This document shows positions 1-46,009 of a stretch of DNA of 64,000 bases, in pieces. Location: the IMG/VR virus record IMGVR_UViG_3300030329_004481, one strand, 5' to 3'. The translations under genes and the position numbers were made by a program. The first letter of the stretch is position 1. The number at the start of each line of letters is the position of its first letter. Under the pieces are notes generated by a model that saw only the letters and a program-made list of their open reading frames with translations, was not told the origin of the DNA and did no database searches. This stretch comes from a virus.

Positions 1-345
1 TAAAGTATCTTCATCTAATATTGAATTAACCCTACCACCTGTTTTTAATTTTAAACCAGATTCAGAAACACTTAATTCTTCTGTTCCAGCAACTGCTACT
101 GCAATATTAGCATTTGTTCCAGTGTCATTAATATTCACATTGGAACTCAATTTTTCAATTTTTTCTAAGTATACTGTTACTGTAGGATCATGGATATAAT
201 CTATTGAATTATATGAAGTTGTTCCATCTCCAATTTTTAATCTTTTATGATCTGTTTCATATGCTAATTCACCAGAAGCTAAAACAGTATTATTACCATA
301 CCAATTACCTCCAGTGTCACGTCTTATTTGTATTTGAGTAGCCAT
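1..345 (-). CDS. Fibre-like virion protein with Mtd-N/hyaluronidase-N-type N-terminal domain (runs off left edge)
   Basis: Not in the ORF track. ATG at 345 with GGAG upstream; translates MATQIQIRRDTGGNWYGNNTVLASGELAYETDHKRLKIGDGTTSYNSIDY..., the typical IQ.RR...W...N.VL..GE..YETD....KIGDG signature; open to position 1. Confidence 0.8.
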   Translation of the reverse strand, partial: MATQIQIRRDTGGNWYGNNTVLASGELAYETDHKRLKIGDGTTSYNSIDYIHDPTVTVYLEKIEKLSSNVNINDTGTNANIAVAVAGTEELSVSESGLKLKTGGRVNSILDEDTL

Positions 346-361
346 TTTTCTCCGTTAAAAA

Positions 362-925
362 TTATGATGCGTTTCCACCATCTATTGTATATGTTGTTGG
401 TAAACTTGAAGAAGGTAAAAGTCCAGAAACATCTGTTGATAAGTCTATTAAATTTCTTGTAATTGCTTGACCAGAAATTGTAATATAATCTAAAGTCCCT
501 GCTAAAGTAACATCTGTTGAGTTATCAGTTCCAGAAGCGTCAACTCCTAAACTAGTTCTTGCTCCTGCGGCATCAGTTGCTCCTGTTCCTCCTGATGCGA
601 CTGGTAATGTTCCTGTTACATCTGTAGTAACATCAACTTGTCCTCTAACAATATCTTGTCCACTTAAAGAAATATAATCATAACTTCCAGATACAGTAAC
701 ATCTGTTGAGTTATCAGTTCCAGAAGCATCAACCCCTAAACTAACTCTGGCAGTTGCTGCAGTTTCATTTACTATTGTTGATGAATTTGCATAAACTAAA
801 AAATCACCATCTGCTGCTCCACTTACATTGATACCTTGCATTGTTGTAACATTTTGTCCAGTAACATCTGTAAGATAACCACCACCAGCGGTATATGCAT
901 TTCTATAACTATTTAAATTTGCCAT
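362..925 (-). CDS. Small fibre/structural protein with a 63-aa internal duplication
   Basis: G/T/S/D-rich; LPVASGGTGATDAAGARTSLG fibre motif; duplicated SLGVDASGTDNSTDVT; ends IDGG. Confidence 0.65.
   Translation of the reverse strand: MANLNSYRNAYTAGGGYLTDVTGQNVTTMQGINVSGAADGDFLVYANSSTIVNETAATARVSLGVDASGTDNSTDVTVSGSYDYISLSGQDIVRGQVDVTTDVTGTLPVASGGTGATDAAGARTSLGVDASGTDNSTDVTLAGTLDYITISGQAITRNLIDLSTDVSGLLPSSSLPTTYTIDGGNAS
506..727. repeat. 33-nt perfect direct repeat (506-538 and 695-727), period 189 nt
   Basis: agtaacatctgttgagttatcagttccagaagc occurs twice; encodes ASGTDNSTDVT on the minus strand. Confidence 0.9.
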
Positions 926-926
926 A

Positions 927-2336
927 TTAGTTCTCTGTTAATACCCATCCGTTATTTGAATCTGCGTAGACTAATTCAAATCCTGCTCTATTTGTTGATA
1001 CTGCAAGATTTTCTGTGACTCCCATTATTTTATGATTTCCTCTTTCTACTGTTATATTATTTGTAGAAGAACTTCCAGTTATATCAACAATTCTTACTGT
1101 ATCACCAGCTGTAACTGATACAGGTAGAGTTACAATAATTGCAGAACCAGAACAATCAACTAAAAGTTTATCACCTTTTGTTGCAGTTCTACTACCATTA
1201 ATTGGTATCCAACCATCTTTGTCTGTTGTATAAATTGGTGTTCTTTGATCATCAGATGATCCACCCGCACTTCCGCCATATCCTGTTGCACTTGTTCCAC
1301 CAGAATAAATGTATAAAATATCTGGTGCGTCTTGTGCTATTTTAATTTCTGTATATGCGTGGGCACTTCCAGGAGTTCCATTGTAATTTACTCCTGTTGT
1401 ATATTCTGTACCCCCTTGATGTGTTCCATCAATGGTTGTAGAAAATTTTAAAAGTTGATTTGCATTAGAAGCATCAGATTGATCAAATCTATAATTAAAT
1501 CCTTTTTGTAAATGTAAAGGAAATCTTTCATGTAAATTTGTTTTTAATTTATTACCATCAATAACAAATACATTTTGGGAAGAACTTCCATCATCAGCAA
1601 TAGTAACAGTGAATGTTTGATTATATTTTGATTCAATAAATGCTTTTACAGATTGTTGTGTGACTAGAGCAGTTGCTGAATTACTTGTTAAATTATCTTC
1701 ATCTAAAATGTGTGTTATATGTGGTCCAGTGACTGCGGATGCAGTTCCAGAATCATAAGAAATCATTCCTGTTGTGGCTGAAAAATCTTGTCCAGTTCCA
1801 CCATATTGTGAAGATATTGCAGAAGCTTGCCAAGTACCATTAGTTATAATTCCAACCGTGGATAAAGCAACTGAACCTGAAACTGGTGTTAATCCTGCAT
1901 CAACTGCTGTTTGATCTGTCCATTGAGATGTTGCTGAATCATAAGCTAATATTCTATTATCAGCAGGTGTGGTAGAAACTGTTACATTATTTAAGTTTCC
2001 TAGTAATACACCATTAACATGAGATCTTGTTGCTAATACATCGGAATTAGCAAGAATTTGTACTGTGTCACCTGTTCCAATAACAGTATGAATAGCACCG
2101 CCAGCACCCCCATGAATTGTTACAGTTGAACTTTGTGTAACTGTTTCTGGTGAACCACCGTCTCCCCTAACATCCCAGGAAAATGTTCCTGTGCCTGTCA
2201 TCAATCCAGATAGTTCTTCAATTGTAGTTCTTTTTATTCTATTTTCATCAGATGCATCATTTACTACAATTGAATCAGAAGTTGAAAGATTATTTTGGCT
2301 AATTAAATCTAATTCACTAATTACTTTATTTGACAT
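927..2336 (-). CDS. Mosaic virion fibre/baseplate-associated protein (degenerate cupredoxin-like domain; C-terminal gp10/gp34-like beta domain)
   Basis: ILDEDNLTSNSATALVTQQSVKAF motif; YRFDQSDASN...FSTT.DGTH.GG.EYTTGV module; C-terminal VDCSGSAIIVTLP...GDTVRIVD...NNITV...LVY....GW. Confidence 0.7.
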   Translation of the reverse strand: MSNKVISELDLISQNNLSTSDSIVVNDASDENRIKRTTIEELSGLMTGTGTFSWDVRGDGGSPETVTQSSTVTIHGGAGGAIHTVIGTGDTVQILANSDVLATRSHVNGVLLGNLNNVTVSTTPADNRILAYDSATSQWTDQTAVDAGLTPVSGSVALSTVGIITNGTWQASAISSQYGGTGQDFSATTGMISYDSGTASAVTGPHITHILDEDNLTSNSATALVTQQSVKAFIESKYNQTFTVTIADDGSSSQNVFVIDGNKLKTNLHERFPLHLQKGFNYRFDQSDASNANQLLKFSTTIDGTHQGGTEYTTGVNYNGTPGSAHAYTEIKIAQDAPDILYIYSGGTSATGYGGSAGGSSDDQRTPIYTTDKDGWIPINGSRTATKGDKLLVDCSGSAIIVTLPVSVTAGDTVRIVDITGSSSTNNITVERGNHKIMGVTENLAVSTNRAGFELVYADSNNGWVLTEN

Positions 2337-2911
2337 TAAATATCCTTCTCGGAGTAAAAAATATGTCTATCTATTTTTACTGTCTTATTAACATTTTTAG
2401 CCCATCTAGGATCTGGTATATAATCTGCATGATAAAAAGTAGCACCATCAGTTATATCAAATATATCATTTGGTTTCAATAAAAATCTTGCAACATCAAC
2501 TGATTTATTCCAAAGTTGTCCTTTAAATGGTACATCATGTTTACCATCGCAGTACCAGCTAAACTGGCAACGATCTCTAACTGGAAAACCATTTGTGTAA
2601 TGTTTTCCTTGCTTTATAACTCCACAAACAGTATTTGGGAATTTTTTACTATTCATTCTATTTAGTACCACTTGACCGACAGCAATCTTTCCTGCGGTGG
2701 ATTCTATTGCTGCTTCAAAGTAAATGTTTTTAGACATACAATCCAAATCAACAGGATCAACAATTGAAATTGTTTTCTTTGCTTCTTCTTTATAAATTGT
2801 TGGTTGAATTGTAGGTGCTGGTGGAACCCAAACAGTTTGGGTCATATTACTATTAATAGATTGTGAAAATATAATTAAAAATATAATTGTGGATATAAGT
2901 ATGCGTAACAT
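2336..2911 (-). CDS. Cell wall hydrolase, SleB/Hydrolase_2 family, with N-terminal signal/TM segment
   Basis: CMSKNIYFEA, AVGQVVLNR, FPNTVCGVIKQ, CQFSWYCDG, DITDGATFYHA, IDRHIFY. Confidence 0.92.
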   Translation of the reverse strand: MLRILISTIIFLIIFSQSINSNMTQTVWVPPAPTIQPTIYKEEAKKTISIVDPVDLDCMSKNIYFEAAIESTAGKIAVGQVVLNRMNSKKFPNTVCGVIKQGKHYTNGFPVRDRCQFSWYCDGKHDVPFKGQLWNKSVDVARFLLKPNDIFDITDGATFYHADYIPDPRWAKNVNKTVKIDRHIFYSEKDI

Positions 2912-2916
2912 ATTAC

Positions 2917-2939
2917 CTCTTATAATGGGTTATTAAGAG
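2917..2939 (-). promoter_or_regulatory. Putative hairpin overlapping the Shine-Dalgarno of the cell wall hydrolase
   Basis: Minus-strand RNA CUCUU-A-AUAA-CCCA-UUAU-AAGAG; the 3' arm covers the AGAGG SD ahead of the AUG at 2911. Confidence 0.4.
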
Positions 2940-3035
2940 CCTATCTGATTTGTTTTTTAAATATTTGATGAAGTGAAATACTTCTTTTGATTTTTTATGA
3001 TAGGCATTTGAAACCTTTTTCTAGAGTTGTAGTAT

Positions 3036-3043
3036 TATTTATA
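3036..3043 (-). promoter_or_regulatory. T4-type late promoter (TATAAATA)
   Basis: Exact TATAAATA on the minus strand, intergenic, directly after the stop of 3044..3430 and upstream of the hydrolase/fibre genes. Confidence 0.7.
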
Positions 3044-3430
3044 CTACTTAACCTCTGTACTCCTAGTGATTTCAAGGATCTTATCTATTTGTTTCTGAAT
3101 TTTATCAGTTCTATTCGGCCAATAGATATATTCCTTTTCTGGGTTTTTCATCAAGTTTTTAAGTAATGGAATTATCATTTTTTCCAAACCCTTGAAAACT
3201 TGTTTGTTTTCTTCTTTATATTTTTCTTCTAGTTCTTTCTTTCTAGCATCAACCTCCAATGTCAACATAGTTTGAATTGTATCTAGTCTTTCTAAAACAT
3301 GATTGCTCTGTACTTCAACTTTTCCAACAGCTTCTGCTGTTTTAGAAGGACTAACTATTTCTCCAAGTTCATCTGCATCAACTGCAGAAAAACCAAAATC
3401 AAAATCTAAATCTTCCCAATCGTCAGCCAT
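3044..3430 (-). CDS. Conserved hypothetical protein of T4-like phages
   Basis: DFDFGFSAVD N-terminus and IIPLLKNLMKNPEKEYIYWPNR motif; co-oriented and abutting the upstream gene. Confidence 0.7.
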   Translation of the reverse strand: MADDWEDLDFDFGFSAVDADELGEIVSPSKTAEAVGKVEVQSNHVLERLDTIQTMLTLEVDARKKELEEKYKEENKQVFKGLEKMIIPLLKNLMKNPEKEYIYWPNRTDKIQKQIDKILEITRSTEVK

Positions 3431-4611
3431 TATTTAAATCCTATTTTTCTTAACTGTTTAATTGTATCATCAGCACTAGTGTGATGAATTCCTATTCCAC
3501 CCTTTGCTCTAAATTCTTTTATATTACCTTCATGATCATCTATTAAAACATTTGGTCTTCCATCTCTACCATCTTTGGCAAACTGTTGTTTGTCTTGTCT
3601 AGAAACTGCTCTCATATCACTTTGATCTAAATTAAAATGTCTTTTCATCCATTTAGTTTTATCACCTGCTGCTTGTTGTGATATTTTCCCTCTACTACTT
3701 CTTGGAATAGCAGTTAACATAATTGGTTTATATTTTCCAATAAATCCCCAAAGTTTTTTAGCATCTGGCATTAGTGGAAGTTTAGCAAAAGTGTTAGAAG
3801 GTAGATCAGGCCAAAACTTATCTTTAAACTTTGTACCTAAATGTTTACCAGTAAATGCATGAAAATCTGCAACCACTCCATCCATATCACAATAGATTTG
3901 TGGTGCATCAAATTCTTTCAATTCAATTTCTTCTTTAAATCTTTTCAATTTCTTTTCTTTGTCTATCCATTTTTTAGCAATGTGATTATCTAAAGGTTTT
4001 TGAACTATTGATCTTATTTTAACAAAAACTTTTCTTAGAACATCCTCATCCGCATCATTATTATCAACAATAATAAAATTTTTATTACCAAAATATCCTT
4101 GAAACTTTCCAAGATTTTTTTGAACATCTTCCCAACTTGATTTTACAATATTATCTGGTAATGTTCTAGATCTCATTTGATTTCTTTGTAATGCAACATC
4201 TAGAGATGTATTTACAAATATCATTAATGTATCATAACCAAGACCACGCAATCCCTCTGAAGCTGATTTAATTCTATCATAATCTTTACCAGTACCATCA
4301 ATAATTAAACCAAGTCTACCATCAACCCATTGCCTCATTCTCATCTTTGTAAGTTTCTTTGCTCTATCTCTTATAACTTGCGATCTTTCAAAATCTTTAT
4401 CATCAAATTTTGTAAAGTCCATTCCCAATCCAGATGATTTTAATTTAAGTTCATATATATCATCTGAATTAACAATCTTCATTCCCAATCCACCTGTAGC
4501 TTTATCAGCAACATATGACTTACCAGAACCTGGCCCACCCGCTAGAAATATTGCTTTGAATATTGAAGGGTCATACATCCCTTCAGTCAAAAATTGATCA
4601 AAAGATCTCAT
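3430..4611 (-). CDS. P-loop (PNK/AAA_33/zeta-like) kinase fused to HAD 5'(3')-nucleotidase-like phosphatase; N-terminal capsid-targeting-like leader
   Basis: Likely start MRSFDQFLTE at 4611; Walker A GGPGSGKS, VNSDD, IIDGTG, lid ALQRNQMRSR; HAD motifs YCDMDGVVADF, LTA, K, LIDD. Confidence 0.8.
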   Translation of the reverse strand: MRSFDQFLTEGMYDPSIFKAIFLAGGPGSGKSYVADKATGGLGMKIVNSDDIYELKLKSSGLGMDFTKFDDKDFERSQVIRDRAKKLTKMRMRQWVDGRLGLIIDGTGKDYDRIKSASEGLRGLGYDTLMIFVNTSLDVALQRNQMRSRTLPDNIVKSSWEDVQKNLGKFQGYFGNKNFIIVDNNDADEDVLRKVFVKIRSIVQKPLDNHIAKKWIDKEKKLKRFKEEIELKEFDAPQIYCDMDGVVADFHAFTGKHLGTKFKDKFWPDLPSNTFAKLPLMPDAKKLWGFIGKYKPIMLTAIPRSSRGKISQQAAGDKTKWMKRHFNLDQSDMRAVSRQDKQQFAKDGRDGRPNVLIDDHEGNIKEFRAKGGIGIHHTSADDTIKQLRKIGFK

Positions 4612-5182
4612 GCCATTGATCTCCATGTTTTTTTGTATAGTACATACTTGTTTCTAGTTTTTCCTCAACTGTAAATTGTTCATCTTTCATTTTCAATAGA
4701 AATTTTTGATCTCTTTGTTTCCCCTTATGTAATTTGGAAAACAAATCTTGAAATTGATTTCCTCTACTATCTACAGAAATACTTTTTCCACCATGATCAA
4801 ACCGAGCATGTACTTTACCATGATCATTTCCTGGTGACTTGTTTGTACCTAAAAGTGAAAAATCTTCACCATCTTTATGAATAACAGAATGTTGATCATA
4901 TTTTTTTCCTAATTCTAACATATGTTTTCTTTCAATATTAGGAATCATTAAAGATTTTTCTTTTACAAATCCACCTTCTTCTTTATATCCACCTCTCATT
5001 TCAACATACCCATGACCCAACTTTCTGACATGCTTTTTTAATTCAGAAAATCTTCTCTCATTTTCTTCATCAGAATGTTCTTGTCTATGTGGAGACAATA
5101 TACCCATCTTTGGTGTATGATTGACGTGATGCATTACTCTAGATAAACTAGACTCATCAATTGATTGTTTGAAACTTTTCAT
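4598..5182 (-). CDS. Putative SAM lyase (T3 SAMase-like) with capsid-targeting-like leader
   Basis: ILSPHR...DEENERR, GGYKE, KEKSLMI, LGKKYDQHSVI follow the order of the T3 SAMase motifs as recalled (LVSAFR...DEVNMSR, GCYRE, EEKTV, EWEQDCVL); starts MKSFKQSIDE. Confidence 0.6.
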   Translation of the reverse strand: MKSFKQSIDESSLSRVMHHVNHTPKMGILSPHRQEHSDEENERRFSELKKHVRKLGHGYVEMRGGYKEEGGFVKEKSLMIPNIERKHMLELGKKYDQHSVIHKDGEDFSLLGTNKSPGNDHGKVHARFDHGGKSISVDSRGNQFQDLFSKLHKGKQRDQKFLLKMKDEQFTVEEKLETSMYYTKKHGDQWHEIF

Positions 5183-5184
5183 TT

Positions 5185-5331
5185 TTAATCCTGTGAATCA
5201 ATAAAATCTTGTTTTGTTGGCGCACCTTTTGAACCAGGTTTGCGCATAGGTCTTCCTTCTTTTCTTTTTTTATGGATATTATGCCATAACCCTTTATTTT
5301 TTTCTTCTAAAAATTGCTTAAATGTTACCAT
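5185..5331 (-). CDS. Small basic protein (48 aa), putative internal head protein
   Basis: Not in the ORF track. MVTFKQFLEEKNKGLWHNIHKKRKEGRPMRKPGSKGAPTKQDFIDSQD*; overlaps the upstream stop (ATGGTAA) and fills the gap exactly. Confidence 0.75.
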   Translation of the reverse strand: MVTFKQFLEEKNKGLWHNIHKKRKEGRPMRKPGSKGAPTKQDFIDSQD

Positions 5332-5594
5332 GCTTTACAACTCCAATATCTTGCTTTAGTTCTTGGTCCAGGATTATCACAATTATGCCTCGCTCTAAAA
5401 GATTTTCTTCTAGCTGGGTTTGATTTTTTAATCCTCATGTTAGGATCACCGAATTCAACTTTTTTAACATTACCAGTTGATGGATCTTTAACATATACTT
5501 TTGACTTTTTAACATCACCTTTCATTTTTTTACCAAGAGGAACGTCTCTACCTTGATACTCTGCTTCCGTTACAAACTCTCTATATGTCTTCAT
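5325..5594 (-). CDS. Small basic protein (DUF6321-like), putative internal head protein
   Basis: MKTYREFVTE leader; VKKVEFGDPNMRIKKSNPARRKSFRARHNC...ARYWSCKAW. Confidence 0.8.
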   Translation of the reverse strand: MKTYREFVTEAEYQGRDVPLGKKMKGDVKKSKVYVKDPSTGNVKKVEFGDPNMRIKKSNPARRKSFRARHNCDNPGPRTKARYWSCKAW

Positions 5595-5598
5595 TTTC

Positions 5599-7239
5599 TT
5601 ACTTTCTTACGTTAGCTACTGAATCTCCAGGGTTTCCTGTTTTGTTTAATATTGATACATGATATATTCTATTTGGATCAGGATTTGATTGAATCAAATC
5701 TGTAACATAATCCCTCATCTCACTTTGTTGACGTATAGTAGTATACCATGAGATTCTACCATTGTCAACTATTTTCTGTGGCTTATTAAAATGTATTGGA
5801 AAATCAACATCAGAAAAGGTTGCTCCTTTAAATTCTGCTCTCATTTTTTTCCATTCACTTCCAGAAGCCAACGTTATATGCAAATCTTTGTCTACTAATG
5901 GTTTTAACTCTGGTTCTCTTTTCAAAACCATTTTTTGCATTTGCTTTATTATATTTATTTCTTTTGGTTTTAACTTATACTTGAGAACACTTTCAACTTT
6001 TATTTCTTCATTTATTCCAATTTGATTCATTAAAGATTTCTTGTCATTCTTTCCTGTCTCTACTGCATATTTAAATAACATATTTAATGCATCACCAATT
6101 GCTCTACCCCTAAGACCTGCTTGTGAAAGATCTCTACCATTGACTCCTAACTCTTTGAGAGAAGTTGGTTTTCCTTTTCTTTTCATATCTGCTAATATCA
6201 TTGATACTGTTTTTTGTTTTTTTGCTTTCAAATATTCATCAATATTTTTTATAGCAGATGGGTGACTTGAAGTATATTGAACCAATTCTAATTCATTGTT
6301 AAGTATAGAAGGATTGTGAATTACCATAACTACACCTTCTATTGATTTTTTTGTTTCATTTGATATTTTCATTGTTCTCTGTGCATTTTCTCCTGCTAAC
6401 CATTTATAATCTTTTAATAGTATAGCTAAAAATGCAGGAAACGCAGACTTTTCAAGTTTATCCATTGTATCATAATCAATGTCTCTTATACCTTTAAACA
6501 AATTGCTCATTAATCCAGTTTTAAACATCAACTTAACACCTTTACTTGGTACAGTTGATTTTGTAAACATCTTTGCAAATTCTTCTTGGAATCTATCTGG
6601 TGATACTGTTTTAATTTTTTCAGATTGTTTTTTAATTTCTCTTTCTGTTTTTGGTTCTAAATTAAAATCAAATCTGGCTGCAAATTGCATTGCTCTCATC
6701 ATTCTCAACGGATCTTCTTCAAATGCGTTTGGACTAATTACAGATATCTGTTTGTTCTCAATGTCAAACTGTCCTCTACCCTCTATGTCGTGTGTTTCAC
6801 CAGTTTCAACATCTTTAGCGATAGCATTCATCCAAAAGTCTCTACGCATTTGATCTTGTTGTAAAGTGATACCTTTACCTAACTTGACTTCAAAATCTTT
6901 ATGTCCAGACCCTGTGCTTTTCTCATCAACTCTTGGAACAGAAATATCAATAGGTTCATCACCTTTTTCAAAATGAGTTGGAGTAAATTTTAATATACCA
7001 AAAGATTTTCCAACAGCATCAACCCTACCAAATTTAGATATCAATTTTGATAACTCATCAAGTTCTAAACCAACCACAAGTAGATCTAAATCTTTTGATA
7101 TTTTACCCAACATTTCATCACGCACCGCTCCACCAATTTGATATATTTTTCCACCAGCAGTTTTAATTGCGGACTTAACCTCTGGTTTAAGTGCGTGGGA
7201 CACATTTGATTCTATTATGTAATTTTTAAATTTTCTCAT
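5599..7239 (-). CDS. Class II tRNA nucleotidyltransferase (CCA-adding/poly(A) polymerase family) fused to a C-terminal 2H phosphoesterase; capsid-targeting-like leader
   Basis: GGAVRD..KDLDL, D..RRDFWMNAIA, FEEDPLRMMRAMQFAARF, SPDRFQEEF; C-terminal LHITLA and YHVSI; starts MRKFKNYIIE. Confidence 0.88.
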   Translation of the reverse strand: MRKFKNYIIESNVSHALKPEVKSAIKTAGGKIYQIGGAVRDEMLGKISKDLDLLVVGLELDELSKLISKFGRVDAVGKSFGILKFTPTHFEKGDEPIDISVPRVDEKSTGSGHKDFEVKLGKGITLQQDQMRRDFWMNAIAKDVETGETHDIEGRGQFDIENKQISVISPNAFEEDPLRMMRAMQFAARFDFNLEPKTEREIKKQSEKIKTVSPDRFQEEFAKMFTKSTVPSKGVKLMFKTGLMSNLFKGIRDIDYDTMDKLEKSAFPAFLAILLKDYKWLAGENAQRTMKISNETKKSIEGVVMVIHNPSILNNELELVQYTSSHPSAIKNIDEYLKAKKQKTVSMILADMKRKGKPTSLKELGVNGRDLSQAGLRGRAIGDALNMLFKYAVETGKNDKKSLMNQIGINEEIKVESVLKYKLKPKEINIIKQMQKMVLKREPELKPLVDKDLHITLASGSEWKKMRAEFKGATFSDVDFPIHFNKPQKIVDNGRISWYTTIRQQSEMRDYVTDLIQSNPDPNRIYHVSILNKTGNPGDSVANVRK

Positions 7240-7244
7240 ACTAT

Positions 7245-7252
7245 TATTTATT
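7245..7252 (-). promoter_or_regulatory. Late-promoter variant (AATAAATA) 5 nt before the ATG, possibly a leaderless transcript
   Basis: TAG-AATAAATA-ATAGT-ATG; no SD in the 13-nt gap. Confidence 0.5.
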
Positions 7253-7936
7253 CTAACACCTATTTGATAATAAACATATTAATTCATTAAATCCCATAAC
7301 TGTAAATGCCCATTCACCTTGAATTGTCACATAAAGAGATTTAATTCCATCTAAAAATATGTAAGAAGTTATAGCACCAATAATACCACAAAGAAATGAT
7401 TGAAAACTATACCTTAGCCATTTAAATTTATTTGTTGCTAACACTCTACCTAGTCCATATATATCACCAACTATAGCATCGTAAGTTCTTGAATCTCTTT
7501 CTAATCTTTGTGCATACTCTTGTTTAAATTCTTCTAATGGTATGTATGAAAAATGCCCAAAAAACAACGGATTAAAAAATGGTGATGATCTGTCTATTTC
7601 TTTTGATCCTGGTTTTTTAGGATATCCTGTTCTTGGCATAATTACAGCAATAGCACATAATAGTGCGATAGTAGAAAAAAATCCTAGTATAGATAATGGT
7701 ACTGCAACTTGTTCATGTTCCATGTTAGCAACTGTTACAGAAAAAACAATTGAAGAAACTGTTATCATTATATTAGCTTTTGTATCAGCCATTAATGACA
7801 TCTGTACTATGTTTGTAAGATTAAGACGAAGAATATTATCTACCGCAGTAGAAGATTTTCCTTCATTAGTTTTATCTAATTCTTCAAATAAAGTATCTGG
7901 TGCTTCAAAGTTTTGAATATCCCATTGATCTCTCAT
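7253..7936 (-). CDS. Pycsar effector family (DUF5706/PycTM-like) membrane protein
   Basis: MSLMADTKANIMITVSSI, TM-TM-PR, NPLFFGHFS, DIYGLGRVLATNKFKWLRYSF, third TM. Confidence 0.85.
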   Translation of the reverse strand: MRDQWDIQNFEAPDTLFEELDKTNEGKSSTAVDNILRLNLTNIVQMSLMADTKANIMITVSSIVFSVTVANMEHEQVAVPLSILGFFSTIALLCAIAVIMPRTGYPKKPGSKEIDRSSPFFNPLFFGHFSYIPLEEFKQEYAQRLERDSRTYDAIVGDIYGLGRVLATNKFKWLRYSFQSFLCGIIGAITSYIFLDGIKSLYVTIQGEWAFTVMGFNELICLLSNRC

Positions 7937-10881: not shown

Positions 10882-11234
10882 TATTTACCTTTCGACGCAC
10901 TCTTTAATTTAGATTGTAATTGCTCGGCAAACATTTTGAGAATTATAGGAATACTCACATTTGACGTTAATCCAAATAAGAATCCAACAGGATATTTGTA
11001 TGTGGCATAAGCTGCTACTTGGGGTACATTATCAAACACTAAAACAATAAGAATATATCCTGTAACGGACATACCCATATTGATAAACAAATCAAGACTA
11101 ATAAGCCACCAGTTTCCTTGATACTTATCTTTGTTATCGTGTCTATAATTAAACAAAAATACAAAAAATGACGAAAATAATATGATGGCAAACATTGATA
11201 AATTTGCCGTGCTAAAAAGGTCATTCATTACCAT
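10881..11234 (-). CDS. Small three-TM membrane protein (holin-like size and topology; function unproven)
   Basis: Three hydrophobic segments and a basic C-terminal tail (KLKSASKGK). Confidence 0.55.
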   Translation of the reverse strand: MVMNDLFSTANLSMFAIILFSSFFVFLFNYRHDNKDKYQGNWWLISLDLFINMGMSVTGYILIVLVFDNVPQVAAYATYKYPVGFLFGLTSNVSIPIILKMFAEQLQSKLKSASKGK

Positions 11235-11634
11235 TCTCCTTGTTTTTGAGCATTTTTAACAAATCAGCTGTAGAACCAACATAAAGATTATTATTTACAG
11301 ACGATGGTCCTTGAACATTTTTGTCTCTTAATACTTCTTTTTTTGTTTTTTGGAGATTCATTAACTTTTCATTAGTGTCTCCTAAGTTTTTAATCAATTG
11401 AGAAGCAACTTCAAAATGCCTTGCATGCTCAGTTGATTTAGCTATCTCCAATAGCTCATCAAGGGCTTCATGTCCTTTTTCCATTAAATTATAATAATTT
11501 TCTCTCGCATAAGTATAATCTGTATTTATATCTTGATCATCTGATATAACATTTAATCTGGTTTCTTTTTTATTAACAATATCTTTAATTGGATCATCAT
11601 TTAATACTTCTTCTACCATACTTTTTATCTCCAT
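11221..11634 (-). CDS. 16: Terminase small subunit (T4 gp16-like)
   Basis: DYTYARENYYNLMEKG.EAL...A..TEHARHFEVASQLIK; VNNNLYVGSTADL; follows gp15. Confidence 0.92.
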   Translation of the reverse strand: MEIKSMVEEVLNDDPIKDIVNKKETRLNVISDDQDINTDYTYARENYYNLMEKGHEALDELLEIAKSTEHARHFEVASQLIKNLGDTNEKLMNLQKTKKEVLRDKNVQGPSSVNNNLYVGSTADLLKMLKNKENGNE

Positions 11635-12524
11635 GGCACTTCCTCATTATCTATAGATACGCTGAATCCAAAATCATTTCTTGTTCCATCCGCATCTTCT
11701 GGTGTAGGTTTAATTTTAATTATTGCGGTATTTGCTGCTCCTATCATATTAGAATCACTAGTTTCCATAAAAATTATACCTGATGAATCTTGTGATCTTA
11801 TATAATTTGTAGAACGCCTATTACTATCTTCCAATTTAATTCTATCAAATGCTCCTATTTCATCTGAAATATATTCTTGTTCTGGTATTGTAATTGGTAT
11901 TTGCACTTCTTTGATAATTTTTCCTTCTGTTGACAATTCTGGATACATAAAACTTTTCATTGTAAATTGCATATCCCAAGAGATTGCTCTCCTAGTTTCA
12001 AAATCACCATCATATGCGTCAAGATAATTGACAGAGTTTAAAACTATAGGAACATCAACTTTAATATTCATTTTAGGAATCATGTTCAAAGTAACAGTAA
12101 AGTCTGGTGTAAAATTTGGTAATATCTGTTCAATTATTTGCGCACCATCTTCCGCATTTTTGACAAGAACATTTAGGTCAAAAATAAAATTATAAGGAAC
12201 TGGATTGTGTTGAGTTGTATAGTTTCCAGAAACAGATGATGCATTCTTGTTAACAGAAATTAATTTTCTTGTACCATCATACATCACTTGACTCATTTGA
12301 AAACCAATCCTTGGAAGTATTATAGCAGGTCTACCATCATTCAAATTTGGTTGATTTATCCTCACCATAAATTTTTGTTTTGGTCCATAAGCCACTGGAA
12401 CCATTATTGTTTCAATTACAGCACCAGAAGAATTTGTCCTTTTAACAGAAATATTATTAAATAGTGATCCAAAAGCGACCACCATCTTTCTAATTGTTTG
12501 ATGGTATGTTGTTGTTCCAAACAT
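11625..12524 (-). CDS. 15: Tail sheath stabiliser / tail terminator (T4 gp15-like)
   Basis: TIRKMVVAFGSLFNNI, VPVAYGPKQKF, LPRIGF, PVPYN, QIIEQILPNFTP, D.YDGDF..RR. Confidence 0.93.
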   Translation of the reverse strand: MFGTTTYHQTIRKMVVAFGSLFNNISVKRTNSSGAVIETIMVPVAYGPKQKFMVRINQPNLNDGRPAIILPRIGFQMSQVMYDGTRKLISVNKNASSVSGNYTTQHNPVPYNFIFDLNVLVKNAEDGAQIIEQILPNFTPDFTVTLNMIPKMNIKVDVPIVLNSVNYLDAYDGDFETRRAISWDMQFTMKSFMYPELSTEGKIIKEVQIPITIPEQEYISDEIGAFDRIKLEDSNRRSTNYIRSQDSSGIIFMETSDSNMIGAANTAIIKIKPTPEDADGTRNDFGFSVSIDNEEVPWR

Positions 12525-13366
12525 TAATATTGTCCTTCAGAAAATGGATCTCTATCTGAAAAATCAAATATAGAATCACTTTCACTTTGAATTGTATAAT
12601 TATTTGCTTGTGTGTCAGTTACTATGATCTGTGTATTTGGAGTTGCAGTCATATTCCATGAAGCACCACTAGTTCCACCAACGACTGCAGAAGTTGTTAT
12701 TATAGTACCTACAATATTTCCAACTCTTAATGTTTTAGTTGAATAATTCCAATTTAATACTTTTGCTGTTGTAGTTCCGTTTGTAATAGTTTCATCTACT
12801 TGAAAATTTCCAGAACCGGAAGCAAAAACAAGATCCATAGCATAACCATAATCTTTTTCTATATCATCGATTGCCGCAATACCAGTATCAATATCTTCAT
12901 GACTATATTCAAACAATTCACAAGTAAGTGTGTATAATGGTAAATTTCCTAACTGATAAAATACCTTTTCGTGTTCAACAAATCTAATTTCAAATAATCT
13001 ATCATTCAATGGAAAATAAATTAAATCACCTTCAAATGGTCTTTGTCTACCTTCAATATCCAAATCTGTCCATCTTCTTTGTGATACTGTAAGTATTAAT
13101 TGATCTCTTATTTCAACACCAAATTGTCCTATTATATCTCCTTCACCACCAAACCCATCAATTGATTCCACATACATCTCAACAGAATGAGCACTTGTAA
13201 ATTTGGATGCAACATCTTCCGCATAAAGATTATCTGTTGCAACTAAGGTTCTGGGCATATAACTAACATCTATGCCATGTATTTGAATAGATTCTTCAAC
13301 TAAATCATTAACTAATTCTTGTTCTAATATTGAATCTGTTTGCTGAAAGTAAGTAGATACTGCCAT
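12524..13366 (-). CDS. 14: Neck protein (T4 gp14-like)
   Basis: EQ.LV.DLVEESIQIHG.DV.YMPR, RPFEGDLIYFP, FEIRFVEHE..FYQLG, YTLTCELFEYS, FDFSDRDPF. Confidence 0.93.
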   Translation of the reverse strand: MAVSTYFQQTDSILEQELVNDLVEESIQIHGIDVSYMPRTLVATDNLYAEDVASKFTSAHSVEMYVESIDGFGGEGDIIGQFGVEIRDQLILTVSQRRWTDLDIEGRQRPFEGDLIYFPLNDRLFEIRFVEHEKVFYQLGNLPLYTLTCELFEYSHEDIDTGIAAIDDIEKDYGYAMDLVFASGSGNFQVDETITNGTTTAKVLNWNYSTKTLRVGNIVGTIITTSAVVGGTSGASWNMTATPNTQIIVTDTQANNYTIQSESDSIFDFSDRDPFSEGQY

Positions 13367-13367
13367 A

Positions 13368-14114
13368 TTATCCTACTGCAAAATCAACTGGATATTGATA
13401 TTTGTTTTCTAATTCATCCTTGAGAACTTCAATATTTGTTTTTGCTTCATCGAGTATAGTTCTACCATCAAGTGTTGTTCCTCCAGGTAATTGAACTCCT
13501 TGATATTTGATTAAATTATATCCCCATTGTTGTCTAAACAGCTCTGTAGTGTATTTTTTTAACCACATATCATTATAAACATCCGTATATGTTGTTGGTT
13601 CAACCAATTGAAAAGCTTCAGCAACTAGATATTCATCTACTGCAAATTCTTTAGACCAATCTACATCAACATACAATCTATCTTGATGTCTAGAAAATCT
13701 CATTCCTGGTTTACCACTAAATAATTCTTGTAGTACACCCAAATGTTGTTGTGTCATATAATATGGTACTACTGACGTTTTAGCTAGATCATAAACATCA
13801 TTTAAGTACATTTGATATCTAACGTCAAACATATTCTTGACTGAGCCTGAACCTAATGGAAAAACTCTAATAATACCAATTGTACCTTCTGACACTGTGA
13901 TATATTCATTGTCTATGTCTGTTTGAGTTATTTGATGTTTTAAATATGTTTTTACTGTTGCATCTGCGTGAAACTCTTGAAACATTTGAAGACTTTCTTC
14001 TACTCTGTCTTCAAGTTGATCATCGTCAACATTTATTTGTATAACTGGTTTCCCCAATGCTCTCAAACAATATTCTTTTAATTCTGTTCTTGATGCGGGT
14101 TGTGTCATTGACAT
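13368..14114 (-). CDS. 13: Neck protein (T4 gp13-like)
   Basis: LKEYCLRALGKPVIQINVDDDQLEDR, YNDMWLKKY, QWG.NL.KY.GVQLPGG.TLDG. Confidence 0.95.
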   Translation of the reverse strand: MSMTQPASRTELKEYCLRALGKPVIQINVDDDQLEDRVEESLQMFQEFHADATVKTYLKHQITQTDIDNEYITVSEGTIGIIRVFPLGSGSVKNMFDVRYQMYLNDVYDLAKTSVVPYYMTQQHLGVLQELFSGKPGMRFSRHQDRLYVDVDWSKEFAVDEYLVAEAFQLVEPTTYTDVYNDMWLKKYTTELFRQQWGYNLIKYQGVQLPGGTTLDGRTILDEAKTNIEVLKDELENKYQYPVDFAVG

Positions 14115-14156
14115 ACAATATCCTATTTTTAAGGCGTTAATATATATACTATAATC

Positions 14157-14164
14157 TATTTATA
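14157..14164 (-). promoter_or_regulatory. T4-type late promoter (TATAAATA) for the gp13 operon
   Basis: Exact consensus in the 58-nt divergent gap, ~40 nt upstream of the gp13 ATG. Confidence 0.75.
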
Positions 14165-14172
14165 AGGAAGGA

Positions 14173-14874
14173 TTGATGACAACTGAGATTGATGAAAACA
14201 AGATAAACATTGATTATTCTTTGTTTTCTTGGGATGATTATGAAGAATTTATGACGCAAGTACAATATGTTCTTATGAATCCATTTTGGTGTGTTTCAAA
14301 TCAACATATTAATATGATGTGTGAGATAATTGATCATGACAATGATAAACTTTTAGAACATTCTCTAAAATCATTTGATGAAAAATATACCCAAATTCAA
14401 CAAATACATTTGCACAACTTCTATTTGCAACAAGTTGATACATTTTTTAATATATTTTTACTTTACAATAATCACAATTTTAATTATCAAAATAATATAA
14501 AAGAATTAACAAAAAAATATGGAAGGTATGATGATCAAATAGAAAAATATGTTATTGTGACAAATGTAGAAGAATATGAACTATTTATTAAAGAAAAACA
14601 AAAATTAGACAGTACTCTTGCGTTAACTGAATATGATAAAATAAATCCTAATTTATACCTACAAGAAATAAATTTAATTTTATTTAAAACTGAACGAACA
14701 AAATACAACAGTTATTTATCAATAATTGATGAAAATGCGGACAACGCTCCGCCAAAATATAAACGCAAACCACTATTAATGTACAAACTTATTTCAGATA
14801 TCTTTGATATCAAAAAAATTCAAAATTTAAAAATAAATTATGAACTAATCAATAAGCATTTTACAAATTACTAA
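14173..14874 (+). CDS. Hypothetical protein, paralogue of 15536..16177
   Basis: SD AAGGAAGG; shares INxxYSxFxW, YxKIxP and DIFDxxxxxNLKINxxxIN with the downstream paralogue. Confidence 0.7.
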   Translation: MMTTEIDENKINIDYSLFSWDDYEEFMTQVQYVLMNPFWCVSNQHINMMCEIIDHDNDKLLEHSLKSFDEKYTQIQQIHLHNFYLQQVDTFFNIFLLYNNHNFNYQNNIKELTKKYGRYDDQIEKYVIVTNVEEYELFIKEKQKLDSTLALTEYDKINPNLYLQEINLILFKTERTKYNSYLSIIDENADNAPPKYKRKPLLMYKLISDIFDIKKIQNLKINYELINKHFTNY

Positions 14875-27561: not shown

Positions 27562-27980
27562 GATGTTACTGTTATTTCTTTTATTTTATAAGGTTGTTGT
27601 AAGATCCAATCAATTATGCTAACCGCATAATCAACTGGCATTTTAGATACATTTTTATTTTTTTGACTTTCAGTATCTATATAACCAAAATTTACACAAG
27701 TTGTATGTATACCTTCAGTAAACAAATGGTGGTTTGCTTCTCTAAGAGATTTTTTTTCTATTGCGTATCTATAACGAAATGTATAATCACTAGCGTGTGA
27801 TCCTATATTAATTATACGTTTATTTAACTCTGCGGCTTGGTATAATAATTCTACTTGTTCAAAACCATTGTGTTTACAATTAATAAAAATATCACAAGAT
27901 TTTAAATTTTCACAATTTCCATACTTTTCAACAAGAGATTTTCCCAAACCCCTTCTTGTTCCTGTAATAAAATATTTCAT
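27558..27980 (-). CDS. Minimal short-chain dehydrogenase/reductase
   Basis: Likely ATG at 27980; ITGTRRGLG, FINC, IINIGS, YAIEK (YxxxK), FGYIDT. Confidence 0.8.
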   Translation of the reverse strand: MKYFITGTRRGLGKSLVEKYGNCENLKSCDIFINCKHNGFEQVELLYQAAELNKRIINIGSHASDYTFRYRYAIEKKSLREANHHLFTEGIHTTCVNFGYIDTESQKNKNVSKMPVDYAVSIIDWILQQPYKIKEITVTS

Positions 27981-34009: not shown

Positions 34010-34015
34010 ATAATC

Positions 34016-45392: not shown

Positions 45393-46009
45393 GAAACAGA
45401 TATGGTATTGAATATGAAGATTATCTAAATTCTAAACTAGATAATATAACATGGATTCATGAACCATATAGAGATAATGTACTATTTCAATGGAATAAAT
45501 TATTTTTAATGAATCTTGAGATAGATGAACCAATTGTTGTCATAGACATTGACATATTACTAATCAATGATTATATGAAATTGATAGACTATCCTATTAA
45601 AGAAGATGAATTTGTATCTATTCATTCTTGGTGGAGAGATACAGACAATCCAAATTACACAATGAATGGTGGGTTTCAAAAATACTATCCAAAATCATGT
45701 AAATACATTTATGAAAAATTTATGAGCGATCCAATACATTGGCAAAGTTATTATATAAAAAATGGAACAACTATTGGACCAGTAAATGGAGAACAATATT
45801 TTGTAGAAGATTCAGTCAAAGAAAAATTAAAATTAAAATTAGTACCCTCTGAATGGGTATGTAGATTTAAAGAAACATATACAATGGATTGGCTATATAA
45901 CATTAATAAAAAATATCCAGGTGACTATATGTACATGGGTGATTTTAATCCAGATATAAAACTTATTCACTTTAATCAATATGGAAATACTAAAAGAATT
46001 TTTGACTGA
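45362..46009 (+). CDS. GT-A fold glycosyltransferase-like protein
   Basis: RIGNRYG..YE, QWNKL, VIDIDI (DxD), NGGF.K, GEQYFV, LIHF. Confidence 0.8.
   Translation: MDTKIFALRIGNRYGIEYEDYLNSKLDNITWIHEPYRDNVLFQWNKLFLMNLEIDEPIVVIDIDILLINDYMKLIDYPIKEDEFVSIHSWWRDTDNPNYTMNGGFQKYYPKSCKYIYEKFMSDPIHWQSYYIKNGTTIGPVNGEQYFVEDSVKEKLKLKLVPSEWVCRFKETYTMDWLYNINKKYPGDYMYMGDFNPDIKLIHFNQYGNTKRIFD

What the first reader, a model, noticed from the sequence alone, without database searches (positions are those of the whole stretch)
3430..7252. Five consecutive genes carry a T4 internal-protein capsid-targeting-like leader: candidate packaged, injected anti-defence kit
Seen: the N-termini are MRKFKNYIIE|S (7239), MKTYREFVTE|A (5594), MVTFKQFLEE|K (5331), MKSFKQSIDE|S (5182) and MRSFDQFLTE|G (4611). 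All are M-x-x-F/Y-x-x-x-hydrophobic-x-E with Glu at exactly position 10, and I saw this on no other gene in the window. A late-promoter-like AATAAATA heads the run. Known: T4 IPII/IPIII start MKTYQEFIAE; this 10-mer routes cargo into the prohead, is removed by gp21 protease after (I/L)xE, and IPI* is injected to block the GmrSD nuclease. Inference: here the tag is attached to enzymes (CCA-type nucleotidyltransferase-2H, SAM lyase-like, kinase-phosphatase) and two small basic proteins. They would be made late, packaged, and act at entry in the next host before any phage gene expression.
Basis: partly seen in the sequence, partly recalled or inferred. Interest (0 to 1): 0.92.

Follow-up and report, generated by a model that had tools for sequence, protein, structure and literature searches.

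The report
T4-type capsid-loading tags, marine phage
Five neighbouring genes of an uncultured marine T4-like phage start with the ten-residue tag that phage T4 uses to load proteins into its head, and tagged relatives of two of them have been found in purified phage particles, so these enzymes are probably carried in the particle and may enter the host with the DNA.

Summary
Five consecutive minus-strand genes (7239 to 3430) start with M-x-x-[F/Y]-x-x-[F/Y/S]-[I/L/V]-x-E. No other gene start in the window does (about 0.1 expected by chance).

The tag matches the T4 capsid targeting sequence at the four positions mutagenesis showed to matter: 4 and 7 for targeting, 8 and 10 for cleavage. It is an add-on. 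Homologues in non-T4-like viruses lack it, and a 98%-identical contig keeps the tag but swaps the cargo behind it.

Published virion proteomes of relatives support packaging:
- In cyanophage S-CREM2 (same family), 4 of 5 tagged proteins are in purified virions, including a homologue of the 194-aa protein here.
- The Atu_ph07 kinase homologue and RsoM2USA ORF89 are also virion proteins.

The cargo is a CCA-adding enzyme fused to a 2H phosphoesterase, a SAM-lyase-fold protein, a kinase fused to a nucleotidase, and two small proteins. All five are basic.

Nothing has been measured for this phage. Cleavage, injection and an anti-defence role are inferred. The AATAAATA "late promoter" is weak evidence; the position in the neck-gene operon is better.

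The mechanism is known from T-even phages. Its use in marine Kyanoviridae on these enzymes is not mentioned in the papers I searched. This scan has noted the same tag on other marine phage DNA.

The parts
5599..7239 (-). 546-aa tagged cargo 1. Leader MRKFKNYIIE (7210-7239), then a class II CCA-adding tRNA nucleotidyltransferase (residues about 9-411), a short linker, and a C-terminal 2H phosphoesterase-fold domain (about 413-536). pI 9.4.
   Evidence: Pfam PolyA_pol and PolyA_pol_RNAbd. PHROG tRNA nucleotidyltransferase, E 4e-56. PDB CCA-adding enzymes by sequence. AF2 model pLDDT 82, with residues 1-10 at pLDDT 34. VIA-align: 1miv Z 28.1 over 9-411; 2H family over 413-536 (1vgj Z 8.7, MHV ns2 8.3, phage Acb1 7t27 8.3, CPDase 8.0). 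Two H-x-T/S motifs are kept in 51 of 52 long homologues.
5325..5594 (-). 89-aa tagged cargo 2. Leader MKTYREFVTE (5565-5594), 7 of 10 residues identical to T4 MKTYQEFIAE. Small basic protein (pI 10.2) of a family spread across marine phages and archaeal viruses.
   Evidence: phrog_7595. Homologues in Kolga, HTVC026P and a Nitrosopumilaceae spindle virus start directly at the conserved core with no leader. Kyanoviridae phage C48C1 has MKKFKQYIDE plus a linker.
5185..5331 (-). 48-aa tagged cargo 3. Leader MVTFKQFLEE (5302-5331), then a basic GLW...KRK...KPG..KG peptide (pI 10.1). This is the swappable cassette position.
   Evidence: phrog_16028 and phrog_11180. The HTVC008M homologue gp128 starts MAKKGLW with no leader. 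In the 98%-identical contig L004 the leader is kept but the body is replaced.
4598..5182 (-). 194-aa tagged cargo 4. Leader MKSFKQSIDE (5153-5182), then a DUF3293 / SAM-lyase-family domain that begins SSLSR. pI 9.2.
   Evidence: Pfam DUF3293 (40.7 bits) and S-AdoMet_lyase (30.5 bits, cut-off 28). AF2 model, then Foldseek: the top 7 PDB hits are phage SAM lyases 6zm9, 6znb, 7ock and 8bb1. The homologue S-CREM2 ORF6 (MKDFDSFLEE) is in the virion proteome with 19 peptides. In the family, [LIV]-x-E precedes SSLSR in nearly all listed members.
3430..4611 (-). 393-aa tagged cargo 5. Leader MRSFDQFLTE (4582-4611), a P-loop kinase domain (about 11-230), and an NT5C-type HAD nucleotidase domain (about 235-392). 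pI 9.6.
   Evidence: Pfam Zeta_toxin, AAA_33 and NT5C. PHROGs ATPase, 5'-3' deoxyribonucleotidase and a weaker polynucleotide kinase hit. Best PDB sequence hits are adenylate kinases, E 2e-5. Nearly all of the top 120 homologues (114 of 120 could be read) carry a leader ending E|G[LM]YDP. The Atu_ph07 gp53 homologue is in the virion proteome with 31 peptides.
7245..7252 (-). AATAAATA motif in the 13-nt spacer ahead of the first tagged gene.
   Evidence: Present. It is only 5 nt from the ATG and one of 21 NATAAATA in the window, so it is weak evidence for a late promoter.
11221..14164 (-). Head of the same co-directional gene train: TATAAATA (14157-14164) 50 nt upstream of a gp13-like adaptor, then gp14-like head closure, gp15-like sheath stabiliser and small terminase.
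   Evidence: PHROGs phrog_211, phrog_460, phrog_227 and phrog_445. Gaps between genes run from -56 to +13 nt all the way from 14114 to 3044. No convincing terminator lies between.

Best explanation
The ten N-terminal residues are a T4-type capsid targeting sequence.

Proposed mechanism:
1. The five genes are transcribed with the neck and terminase genes.
2. The tag, through its aromatic residues at positions 4 and 7, binds the scaffolding core of the assembling prohead.
3. The T4-type prohead protease (Peptidase_S77) cuts after [I/L/V]-x-E at residue 10 and frees the mature basic protein inside the head.
4. The proteins stay in the head with the DNA and probably leave with it at infection.

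The locus behaves as a cassette site: the tag is kept and the cargo behind it is exchanged.

The cargo would supply ready-made activities at entry. These are a CCA-adding enzyme joined to a 2H phosphoesterase (tRNA 3'-end healing and rebuilding, or cyclic-nucleotide hydrolysis), a SAM-lyase-fold protein (removing the SAM that SAM-dependent restriction needs), a nucleotide kinase joined to a nucleotidase, and two small basic proteins.

Status of each step:
- Shown here: the motif, its modularity, the folds and the gene context.
- Shown by others for relatives: presence in virions.
- Inferred: cleavage, injection, timing and an anti-defence role.
For: 1. Match to the T4 determinants. T4 ipII and ipIII read MKTYQEFIAE. 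Mutagenesis puts targeting at residues 4 and 7 and processing at residues 8 and 10 (PMC9026906). Here all five genes have F/Y at 4, an aliphatic residue at 8 and E at 10, and four have F/Y at 7.

2. Beyond chance: 4-5 observed against 0.11 expected, and all adjacent.

3. Add-on behaviour.
- The 89-aa family lacks the tag in a siphophage, a podophage and an archaeal virus, but has it in Kyanoviridae.
- Phage CCA enzymes of SunLIRen, W70 and Aeromonas AS-sw start at the catalytic core with no tag. Of the 120 closest marine homologues, all but a few with truncated or extended predicted starts carry it.
- Window and L004 are homologous through the 48-aa gene's leader to 5293. Homology then breaks and resumes exactly at the next ATG, 5182.

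4. Virion proteomes.
- S-CREM2 (Kyanoviridae, CsCl-purified): ORF6 SAM hydrolase (MKDFDSFLEE), ORF14 kinase (MKRFDAFLTE), ORF154 cytidylyltransferase (MKNFSSFLTE), ORF136 (MQTFSMFFSE) and ORF13 (MKDLHSFLTE) are all detected.
- Strict tag: 4 of 5 tagged proteins are in the S-CREM2 virion against 46 of 217 others, Fisher p = 0.0097.
- S-SZBM1: the only enzyme found in the virion, its cytidylyltransferase, starts MRFRQFIIE.
- RsoM2USA ORF89 (MKTFKQFLSE) is one of ten abundant virion bands.
- Atu_ph07 gp53, a homologue of the kinase here, has 31 peptides.

5. All five relatives tested encode Peptidase_S77.

6. All five tagged proteins have pI 9.2-10.4, against 4 of 62 other window proteins above 9 (p = 1.3e-5). 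T4 internal proteins are also basic (own knowledge).

7. Residues 1-10 are the least confident part of both AF2 models (pLDDT 34-35), as expected for a detachable peptide.

8. The genes sit in a tight train with the gp13-gp16 homologues.
Against: - Nothing has been measured for this phage. Its head genes and protease lie outside the 64-kb window and no genome is held.
- The S-CREM2 authors themselves caution that abundant non-structural proteins could co-purify with virions.
- In S-SZBM1 the two strictly tagged small proteins, ORF191 and ORF192, are not among the 30 proteins reported. That proteome is shallow.
- T4 gp61.1 carries MKTFKEFIKE in an early-gene region, so the motif alone does not prove late expression or packaging.
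- In the kinase, CCA-enzyme and DUF3293 families the tag is near-universal among the marine homologues retrieved. Within those families it could be read as an inherited family N-terminus rather than a mobile signal.
- One leader has Ser at position 7 and one has Val at position 8.
- HTVC008M, the closest cultured phage by DNA search, has no strict-tag gene.
Confidence: 0.72

Rival explanations
1. The proteins are packaged through the tag, but their role is inside the particle (neutralising DNA charge, packing, or helping assembly and ejection). They are not a counter-defence kit that acts in the next host.
For: All five are strongly basic, like the DNA-associated internal proteins of T4. Two are very small basic peptides with no enzyme fold. 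No host target is identified.
Against: Three cargos are full-size enzymes whose motifs are conserved in homologues: invariant catalytic-core columns in the CCA domain, 2H motifs in 51 of 52 long homologues, and the SAM-lyase fold. Selection for mere charge would not keep these. T4 Ip1-3 all act on host restriction enzymes (PMC12373910).
Confidence: 0.13
2. The shared N-terminus is not a capsid signal. It would serve another purpose, such as high translation initiation in an AT-rich genome, a common docking helix for a cytoplasmic enzyme complex, or a degradation or sorting tag. On this reading the virion detections in relatives are carry-over of abundant proteins.
For: The S-CREM2 authors raise co-purification as a possibility. 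T4 gp61.1 has the motif in an early region. Lys or Arg at position 2 and A-rich codons are common in well-expressed genes (own knowledge).
Against: Tagged proteins were detected in four separate virion proteome studies: S-CREM2, S-SZBM1, Atu_ph07 and RsoM2USA. The match covers exactly the four positions that T4 mutagenesis defined. The other 62 genes of the window, including highly expressed structural ones, lack it.
Confidence: 0.12
3. Chance resemblance, or a leftover of local gene duplication with no function.
For: Short motifs recur by chance in AT-rich genomes, and the pattern was defined after seeing the genes.
Against: Expected 0.11 against 4-5 observed, and all adjacent. The leader DNA is only 47-67% identical while the key residues are fixed. 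The cargos are unrelated in fold. The same tag heads thousands of metagenomic homologues.
Confidence: 0.02

Closest known systems
Capsid targeting sequence (CTS) of phage T4 internal proteins IPI, IPII and IPIII (Mullaney and Black 1996; Repoila et al. 1994; review PMC9026906)
   Same: A ten-residue N-terminal tag with the same key positions (aromatic 4, aromatic 7, aliphatic 8, Glu 10); one leader here is 7 of 10 identical to MKTYQEFIAE. It sits on otherwise unrelated, basic proteins. The genes are clustered at a locus where cargo is exchanged between close relatives while the tag is kept. The phage is T4-like, and its relatives encode the gp21-type protease.
   Different: The phage family is marine Kyanoviridae-like, not Tequatrovirus. 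Three of the five cargos are 22-62 kDa enzymes rather than small inhibitor proteins. The locus lies inside the neck/terminase operon rather than near gene e. No packaging, cleavage or injection has been measured.
T4 Alt, the ADP-ribosyltransferase packaged in the head and injected (own knowledge; processing described in PMC9026906)
   Same: An enzyme loaded into a T4-type head through a cleaved N-terminal propeptide and delivered at infection.
   Different: The chemistry differs, and Alt's propeptide is not the decapeptide seen here. In Atu_ph07 a homologue of the kinase here follows an N-terminal region carrying a YRGM motif, which I take to be Alt-like from that motif alone. That fusion protein is a virion protein.
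Virion-associated 'regulatory' proteins of cyanophage S-CREM2: SAM hydrolase ORF6, kinase ORF14, cytidylyltransferase ORF154 (PMC10665884)
   Same: Same virus family. ORF6 is a homologue of the 194-aa protein here. All carry the same tag and were found in CsCl-purified virions.
   Different: The passages of that paper that I read do not mention the tag, and the paper did not come up in my full-text search for 'capsid targeting sequence' plus 'cyanophage'. Its cargo set differs: no CCA enzyme is reported there.
E. coli-type multifunctional CCA-adding enzyme with an HD phosphohydrolase domain (own knowledge)
   Same: A class II CCA-adding core joined to a phosphoesterase domain that could heal damaged tRNA 3' ends before CCA is rebuilt.
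   Different: The phosphoesterase here has the 2H fold, not HD, and the protein carries a capsid tag. The 2H fold also includes anti-CBASS Acb1 (Z 8.3), so the substrate could be a cyclic nucleotide signal instead of tRNA.
Phage T3 / Svi3-3 SAM lyases (PDB 6zm9, 7ock, 8bb1)
   Same: Pfam family hit above the curated cut-off, and the top seven fold matches.
   Different: T3 SAM lyase is an early cytoplasmic protein (own knowledge). This one has a capsid tag and about 60 extra C-terminal residues modelled at low confidence. Catalysis is untested.

Membership tests
T4-type CTS-bearing internal (head-packaged) proteins | N-terminal decapeptide with targeting determinants at positions 4 and 7 (aromatic in T4) | tested here: met
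   F/Y at position 4 in 5 of 5 genes; F/Y at position 7 in 4 of 5 (Ser in the 194-aa protein). The determinants are taken from PMC9026906.
T4-type CTS-bearing internal (head-packaged) proteins | Prohead-protease site (L/I)-x-E ending the tag at residue 10 | tested here: met
   IIE, LEE, IDE and LTE in four genes and VTE in one. Across the DUF3293 family, [LIV]-x-E precedes the conserved SSLSR in nearly all listed members even when tag length varies.
T4-type CTS-bearing internal (head-packaged) proteins | Tag is independent of cargo: found on unrelated proteins and absent from homologues in phages without a T4-type head | tested here: met
   Five unrelated cargos. Homologues without the tag in Kolga, HTVC026P, a Nitrosopumilaceae virus, SunLIRen and W70. 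Cargo swapped behind a retained tag in L004.
T4-type CTS-bearing internal (head-packaged) proteins | Phage encodes the gp21-type prohead protease (Peptidase_S77) and a scaffolding core | tested here: inconclusive
   Peptidase_S77 is present in all five relatives tested: HTVC008M, Melnitz, S-CREM2, RsoM2USA and Atu_ph07. The window holds gp13-16 and baseplate homologues but not the head genes.
T4-type CTS-bearing internal (head-packaged) proteins | Protein physically present in purified virions | not testable with these tools
   Not measured for this phage. Published proteomes find tagged homologues or tagged proteins in S-CREM2, S-SZBM1, Atu_ph07 and RsoM2USA. S-CREM2 2x2 test: p = 0.0097.
T4-type CTS-bearing internal (head-packaged) proteins | Tag removed during head maturation; protein ejected into the host | not testable with these tools
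   No peptide-level or infection data were available.
T4-type CTS-bearing internal (head-packaged) proteins | Late expression with the morphogenetic genes | tested here: inconclusive
   The genes are co-directional with the gp13-gp16 homologues, with gaps of -56 to +13 nt and no convincing terminator, and TATAAATA lies 50 nt ahead of the gp13-like gene. The AATAAATA at 7245 is not informative.
Class II CCA-adding tRNA nucleotidyltransferase | PolyA_pol head domain with the GG-VRD and DxD core, plus neck and body helices | tested here: met
   Pfam PF01743 and PF12627. 1miv Z 28.1 over 366 residues. Invariant G36, R40, D41, D50 and D52 columns. Specificity (CCA, CC, A or poly(A)) was not tested.
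2H phosphoesterase superfamily (LigT / CPDase / Acb1) | Two H-x-T/S-x motifs on the 2H fold | tested here: met
   HITL and HVSI are in the C-terminal domain and are kept in 51 of 52 long homologues. Fold matches are a consistent run of 2H enzymes at Z 8.7 down to 5.7 over residues 413-536; Z in this range alone can be a common arrangement. No Pfam model detects the domain.
Phage SAM lyase (S-AdoMet_lyase, PF23780) | Family profile match and the SAM-lyase fold | tested here: met
   30.5 bits against a cut-off of 28. The top 7 Foldseek hits are SAM lyases, probability about 1.0, but TM is only 0.25-0.53 and model pLDDT is 67.6. Active-site residues and activity were not tested.
T4 polynucleotide kinase-phosphatase (Pnkp) | N-terminal P-loop polynucleotide 5'-kinase plus C-terminal HAD 3'-phosphatase acting on nucleic acid ends | tested here: inconclusive
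   The domain order is the same, kinase then HAD. The best matches are adenylate kinases, a PHROG ATPase family and 5'-3' deoxyribonucleotidase; the PHROG polynucleotide kinase hit is much weaker at E 1.4e-8. A nucleotide-metabolism reading is at least as likely.

The most novel reading that the evidence does not exclude
Abundant ocean T4-like phages carry a cargo of ready-made enzymes that can be read from sequence and is probably injected. Each enzyme is addressed by the T4 capsid tag at a cassette site where cargo is swapped behind a fixed tag. In this phage the set would pre-empt host immunity at the moment of entry: a CCA-adding enzyme joined to a 2H esterase to mend cleaved tRNA 3' ends or destroy cyclic-nucleotide alarm signals, a SAM lyase to starve SAM-dependent restriction, and a nucleotide kinase joined to a nucleotidase. 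If so, the tag would let the packaged, and probably injected, protein set of uncultured phages be listed directly from metagenomes.
Probability: 0.35. Interest if true: 0.8.

Novelty: new member of a known kind. Interest (0 to 1): 0.6.

Why it matters
Proteins that a phage carries in with its DNA act before any phage gene is expressed, so they are well placed to disarm host defences. Very few are known outside T4, P1, N4 and the giant phages.

If the T4 tag works the same way here, a ten-residue motif would be enough to list the packaged proteins of some of the ocean's most abundant phages from sequence alone. It would also explain why 'non-structural' enzymes (SAM hydrolase, kinases, cytidylyltransferases) keep turning up in cyanophage virion proteomes.

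Finally, it points to testable enzyme functions at entry: tRNA-end repair or signal degradation, SAM removal, and nucleotide conversion.

Tried and rejected
- Late promoter. The AATAAATA at 7245-7252 is 5 nt from the ATG and is one of 21 NATAAATA in the window, of which only 4 are near same-strand gene starts. I rejected it as evidence. A pelagimyophage study also failed to define late promoters in this group (PMC7029224).
- Strict-pattern scans of whole genomes. HTVC008M has none and Aeromonas phage 65 has none at the N-termini of picked genes, so the exact decapeptide is lineage-specific. Shorter and longer variants exist, for example MKTFxELQE on most kinases and MKKFSEFIKLEE in phage 65.
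- S-SZBM1 as a second proteome test. Its two strict-tag proteins, ORF191 and ORF192, were not among the 30 reported proteins; only the tagged cytidylyltransferase was.
- Pfam on the C-terminal 147 residues of the CCA enzyme, and on the two small proteins without their tags, gave nothing useful. PDB sequence search for the 194-aa protein gave nothing. The protein-atlas search for the 89-aa protein gave only unnamed viral clusters.
- Reading the kinase-phosphatase as T4 Pnkp: not supported over an NMP-kinase plus nucleotidase reading.
I therefore could not look for this phage's own head genes or for transcripts.
- One paper search failed on a two-letter term. Petrov 2010 holds no text on internal proteins.

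Full report
**What is there**

The window comes from a T4-like marine myovirus with about 30% G+C. Its closest cultured relative by DNA search is Pelagibacter phage HTVC008M, family Kyanoviridae. No whole genome is held.

On the minus strand a tight gene train runs from a gp13-like adaptor at 14114 through gp14-like, gp15-like and small-terminase genes down to 3044. Gaps between genes range from -56 to +13 nt, and no convincing terminator lies between.

| Start | N-terminus | Length |
|---|---|---|
| 7239 | MRKFKNYIIE | 546 aa |
| 5594 | MKTYREFVTE | 89 aa |
| 5331 | MVTFKQFLEE | 48 aa |
| 5182 | MKSFKQSIDE | 194 aa |
| 4611 | MRSFDQFLTE | 393 aa |

For the last gene, the internal ATG at 4611 has a GGAG 11 nt upstream and agrees with the starts of homologues.

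**Is it more than chance?**

The window has 516 ATGs followed by at least 40 open codons in six frames. A stricter pattern fits four of the five and nothing else. From the frequency of the core motif inside proteins, 0.11 N-terminal matches are expected among the 67 genes.

The leader DNA is only 47-67% identical between genes, while the key residues are fixed. Selection is therefore acting on the peptide.

**Match to the T4 signal**

The T4 record gives MKTYQEFIAE for ipII and ipIII. According to the review of Black's work (PMC9026906), amber-suppressor mutagenesis placed capsid targeting at residues 4 and 7 and processing at residues 8 and 10. The leaders here conserve exactly those four positions. 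Four of the five end in (I/L)-x-E, the gp21 cleavage motif; the fifth ends in V-x-E.

**The tag is a module**

- *89-aa family.* Homologues in the siphophage Kolga, the podophage HTVC026P and a Nitrosopumilaceae spindle-shaped virus start directly at the conserved core. The Kyanoviridae phage C48C1 has MKKFKQYIDE plus a linker.
- *CCA enzymes.* Those of SunLIRen, W70 and Aeromonas phage AS-sw begin at the catalytic core with no tag. Of the 120 closest marine homologues of the enzyme here, all but a few with truncated or extended predicted starts carry the tag.
- *Kinase family.* Nearly all of the top 120 homologues end their leader with E just before G[LM]YDP; 114 of the 120 could be read.
- *DUF3293 family.* Almost all of 61 homologues end their leader with [LIV]-x-E just before SSLSR, although leader length varies from 7 to 19 residues.
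- *Cassette swap.* A 98%-identical IMG/VR contig (L004) is homologous to the window through the 48-aa gene's leader as far as 5293. It then diverges completely and resumes exactly at the next start codon, 5182. The cargo body was exchanged and the tag kept. In L004 the inserted genes again start MVTFKQYITE and MKTYRVYKED. This mirrors the polymorphic ip loci of T-even phages, where many ip genes were recognised by their signal sequence (PMC12373910 citing Repoila 1994).

**Experimental support from relatives**

This evidence comes from published virion proteomes; the link to the tag is my own observation.

- *S-CREM2.* This cyanophage belongs to the same family, and its virions were CsCl-purified (PMC10665884). 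I translated all 52 virion proteins. The 'regulatory' and several hypothetical ones start with the tag:

  | ORF | Annotation | N-terminus |
  |---|---|---|
  | ORF6 | SAM hydrolase, a homologue of the 194-aa protein here | MKDFDSFLEE |
  | ORF14 | kinase | (GTG)KRFDAFLTE |
  | ORF154 | cytidylyltransferase | MKNFSSFLTE |
  | ORF136 | hypothetical | MQTFSMFFSE |
  | ORF13 | hypothetical | MKDLHSFLTE |
  | ORF12 | annotated CRISPR-Cas9 nuclease | RFASFMAE at residues 18-25 |

  With a strict rule, 4 of 5 tagged ORFs are in the virion against 46 of 217 others (Fisher p = 0.0097). The passages of the paper I read do not mention the tag, and the paper did not come up in a full-text search for the CTS term with 'cyanophage'.
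- *S-SZBM1.* The only enzyme found in the virion, its cytidylyltransferase, starts MRFRQFIIE. Two small strict-tag proteins were not among the 30 proteins reported.
- *RsoM2USA.* ORF89 (MKTFKQFLSE) is one of ten abundant virion bands. The kinase homologue ORF254 sits in a run of tagged genes.
- *Atu_ph07.* The kinase homologue gp53 follows an N-terminal region with a YRGM motif that I take to be Alt-like, behind a related leader (MKWNDLNE). It gave 31 peptides in virions, and gp54-65 were also detected.

All of these phages, plus HTVC008M and Melnitz, encode the gp21-type protease Peptidase_S77.

**Further consistent features**

All five tagged proteins are basic (pI 9.2-10.4), against 4 of 62 other window proteins above 9 (p = 1.3e-5). 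In both AlphaFold models, residues 1-10 are the least confident segment.

**Cargo**

- *546-aa protein.* It is a class II CCA-adding enzyme (1miv Z 28.1 over residues 9-411). A short linker joins it to a 2H phosphoesterase-fold domain (residues 413-536). That domain matches LigT (Z 8.7), coronavirus ns2 and phage Acb1 (8.3), CPDase (8.0), and further 2H enzymes down to Z 5.7. Its two H-x-T/S motifs are kept in 51 of 52 long homologues. It could heal and rebuild tRNA 3' ends, or hydrolyse cyclic-nucleotide signals. I cannot tell which.
- *194-aa protein.* It passes the Pfam SAM-lyase cut-off, and its model's seven best PDB matches are phage SAM lyases.
- *393-aa protein.* It is a P-loop kinase whose closest PDB matches by sequence are adenylate kinases, fused to an NT5C-type nucleotidase. 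In HTVC008M, Melnitz and a Morganella phage these are two adjacent genes. A Pnkp-like RNA-end role is possible but not favoured.
- *Two small proteins.* They have no assignable function.

**What remains inferred**

Removal of the tag, ejection into the host, timing and any anti-defence effect are all inferred. Caveats:
- The window lacks this phage's own head genes.
- The S-CREM2 authors note possible co-purification.
- T4 gp61.1 carries MKTFKEFIKE in an early region.
- HTVC008M has no strict tag.
- The AATAAATA motif is not meaningful.

**Novelty**

CTS-directed loading of diverse internal proteins is established for T-even phages, and the review already suggests it is a general way for T4-like phages to load proteins. 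Its presence in marine Kyanoviridae-like phages on a CCA/2H enzyme, a SAM-lyase-fold protein and a kinase-nucleotidase is not mentioned in the papers I searched.

This scan has reported the same tag on other marine and giant phage DNA. I did not use those notes as evidence.

I file this as a new member of a known kind. The added value is that published virion proteomes, read with the tag in mind, support the packaging reading.

Noticed in passing
window 7253-7936 (-): The gene just upstream of the tagged array encodes a 227-aa protein with a clear Pycsar effector transmembrane domain (Pfam PycTM, E 3.7e-20). That is a bacterial anti-phage effector module inside a phage. It sits next to a 2H esterase whose fold relatives include cyclic-nucleotide-degrading Acb1. 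It is conserved in contigs L004-L006.
   Followed up: no
T4 record NC_000866, 18966-19130 (-), locus L026: T4 gp61.1 (54 aa, function unknown) starts MKTFKEFIKE, a near-perfect capsid targeting sequence, yet it lies in the early primase region. It is either an unrecognised packaged protein or a warning that the motif alone is not proof.
   Followed up: partly
L083 (Atu_ph07 gp053-057), 190-5590: Four consecutive Atu_ph07 genes start MRWEQLTE, MRWEQLNE or MKWNDLNE, each followed by a region with a YRGM motif that I take to be Alt-like (not tested). All are in the published virion proteome. This is a second, shorter leader type (W3, L6, E8) in a jumbo phage with a T4-type protease.
   Followed up: partly
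L011 (RsoM2USA ORF254-258) and the RsoM2USA genome: RsoM2USA has 11 strict-tag genes, including the run ORF254-256 and ORF258. The untagged ORF257 inside that run is also an abundant virion band.
   Followed up: partly
L088 (Campylobacter phage CP220), 1920-3171: The DUF3293 homologue and its neighbour both start MKF(K/I)DY(I/L)K, with no Glu at position 10. This may be another leader variant in Eucampyvirinae.
   Followed up: no
window 27000-42900 (-): A run of about eight large paralogous genes in a 23-26% G+C stretch. Their products begin with a similar Cys-containing N-terminus (FCxxPW / CVMPF / FCALPWMHL), which looks like radical-SAM/SPASM-type enzymes. On the plus strand they are flanked by further genes that I did not annotate.
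   Followed up: no
window 3044-3430 (-): The first untagged gene after the array encodes a 128-aa acidic protein (pI 4.8) with a DDWEDLDFDFGF start. It is conserved in L004 and L006, and no family was found.
   Followed up: no
window 45981-46433 (+): One gene on the other strand starts MEILKEFLTE. This is a near miss to the tag (Leu instead of an aromatic at position 4) and may be chance.
   Followed up: no
L007 975-2219; Melnitz 13272-14528; HTVC008M gp127: A family of about 414 aa with a conserved NLHLEHLED motif carries the tag in L007 (MYSFNQYLTE) and Melnitz (MINFSKYITE) but not in HTVC008M (MYNDLLVED). It is not present in this window.
   Followed up: no
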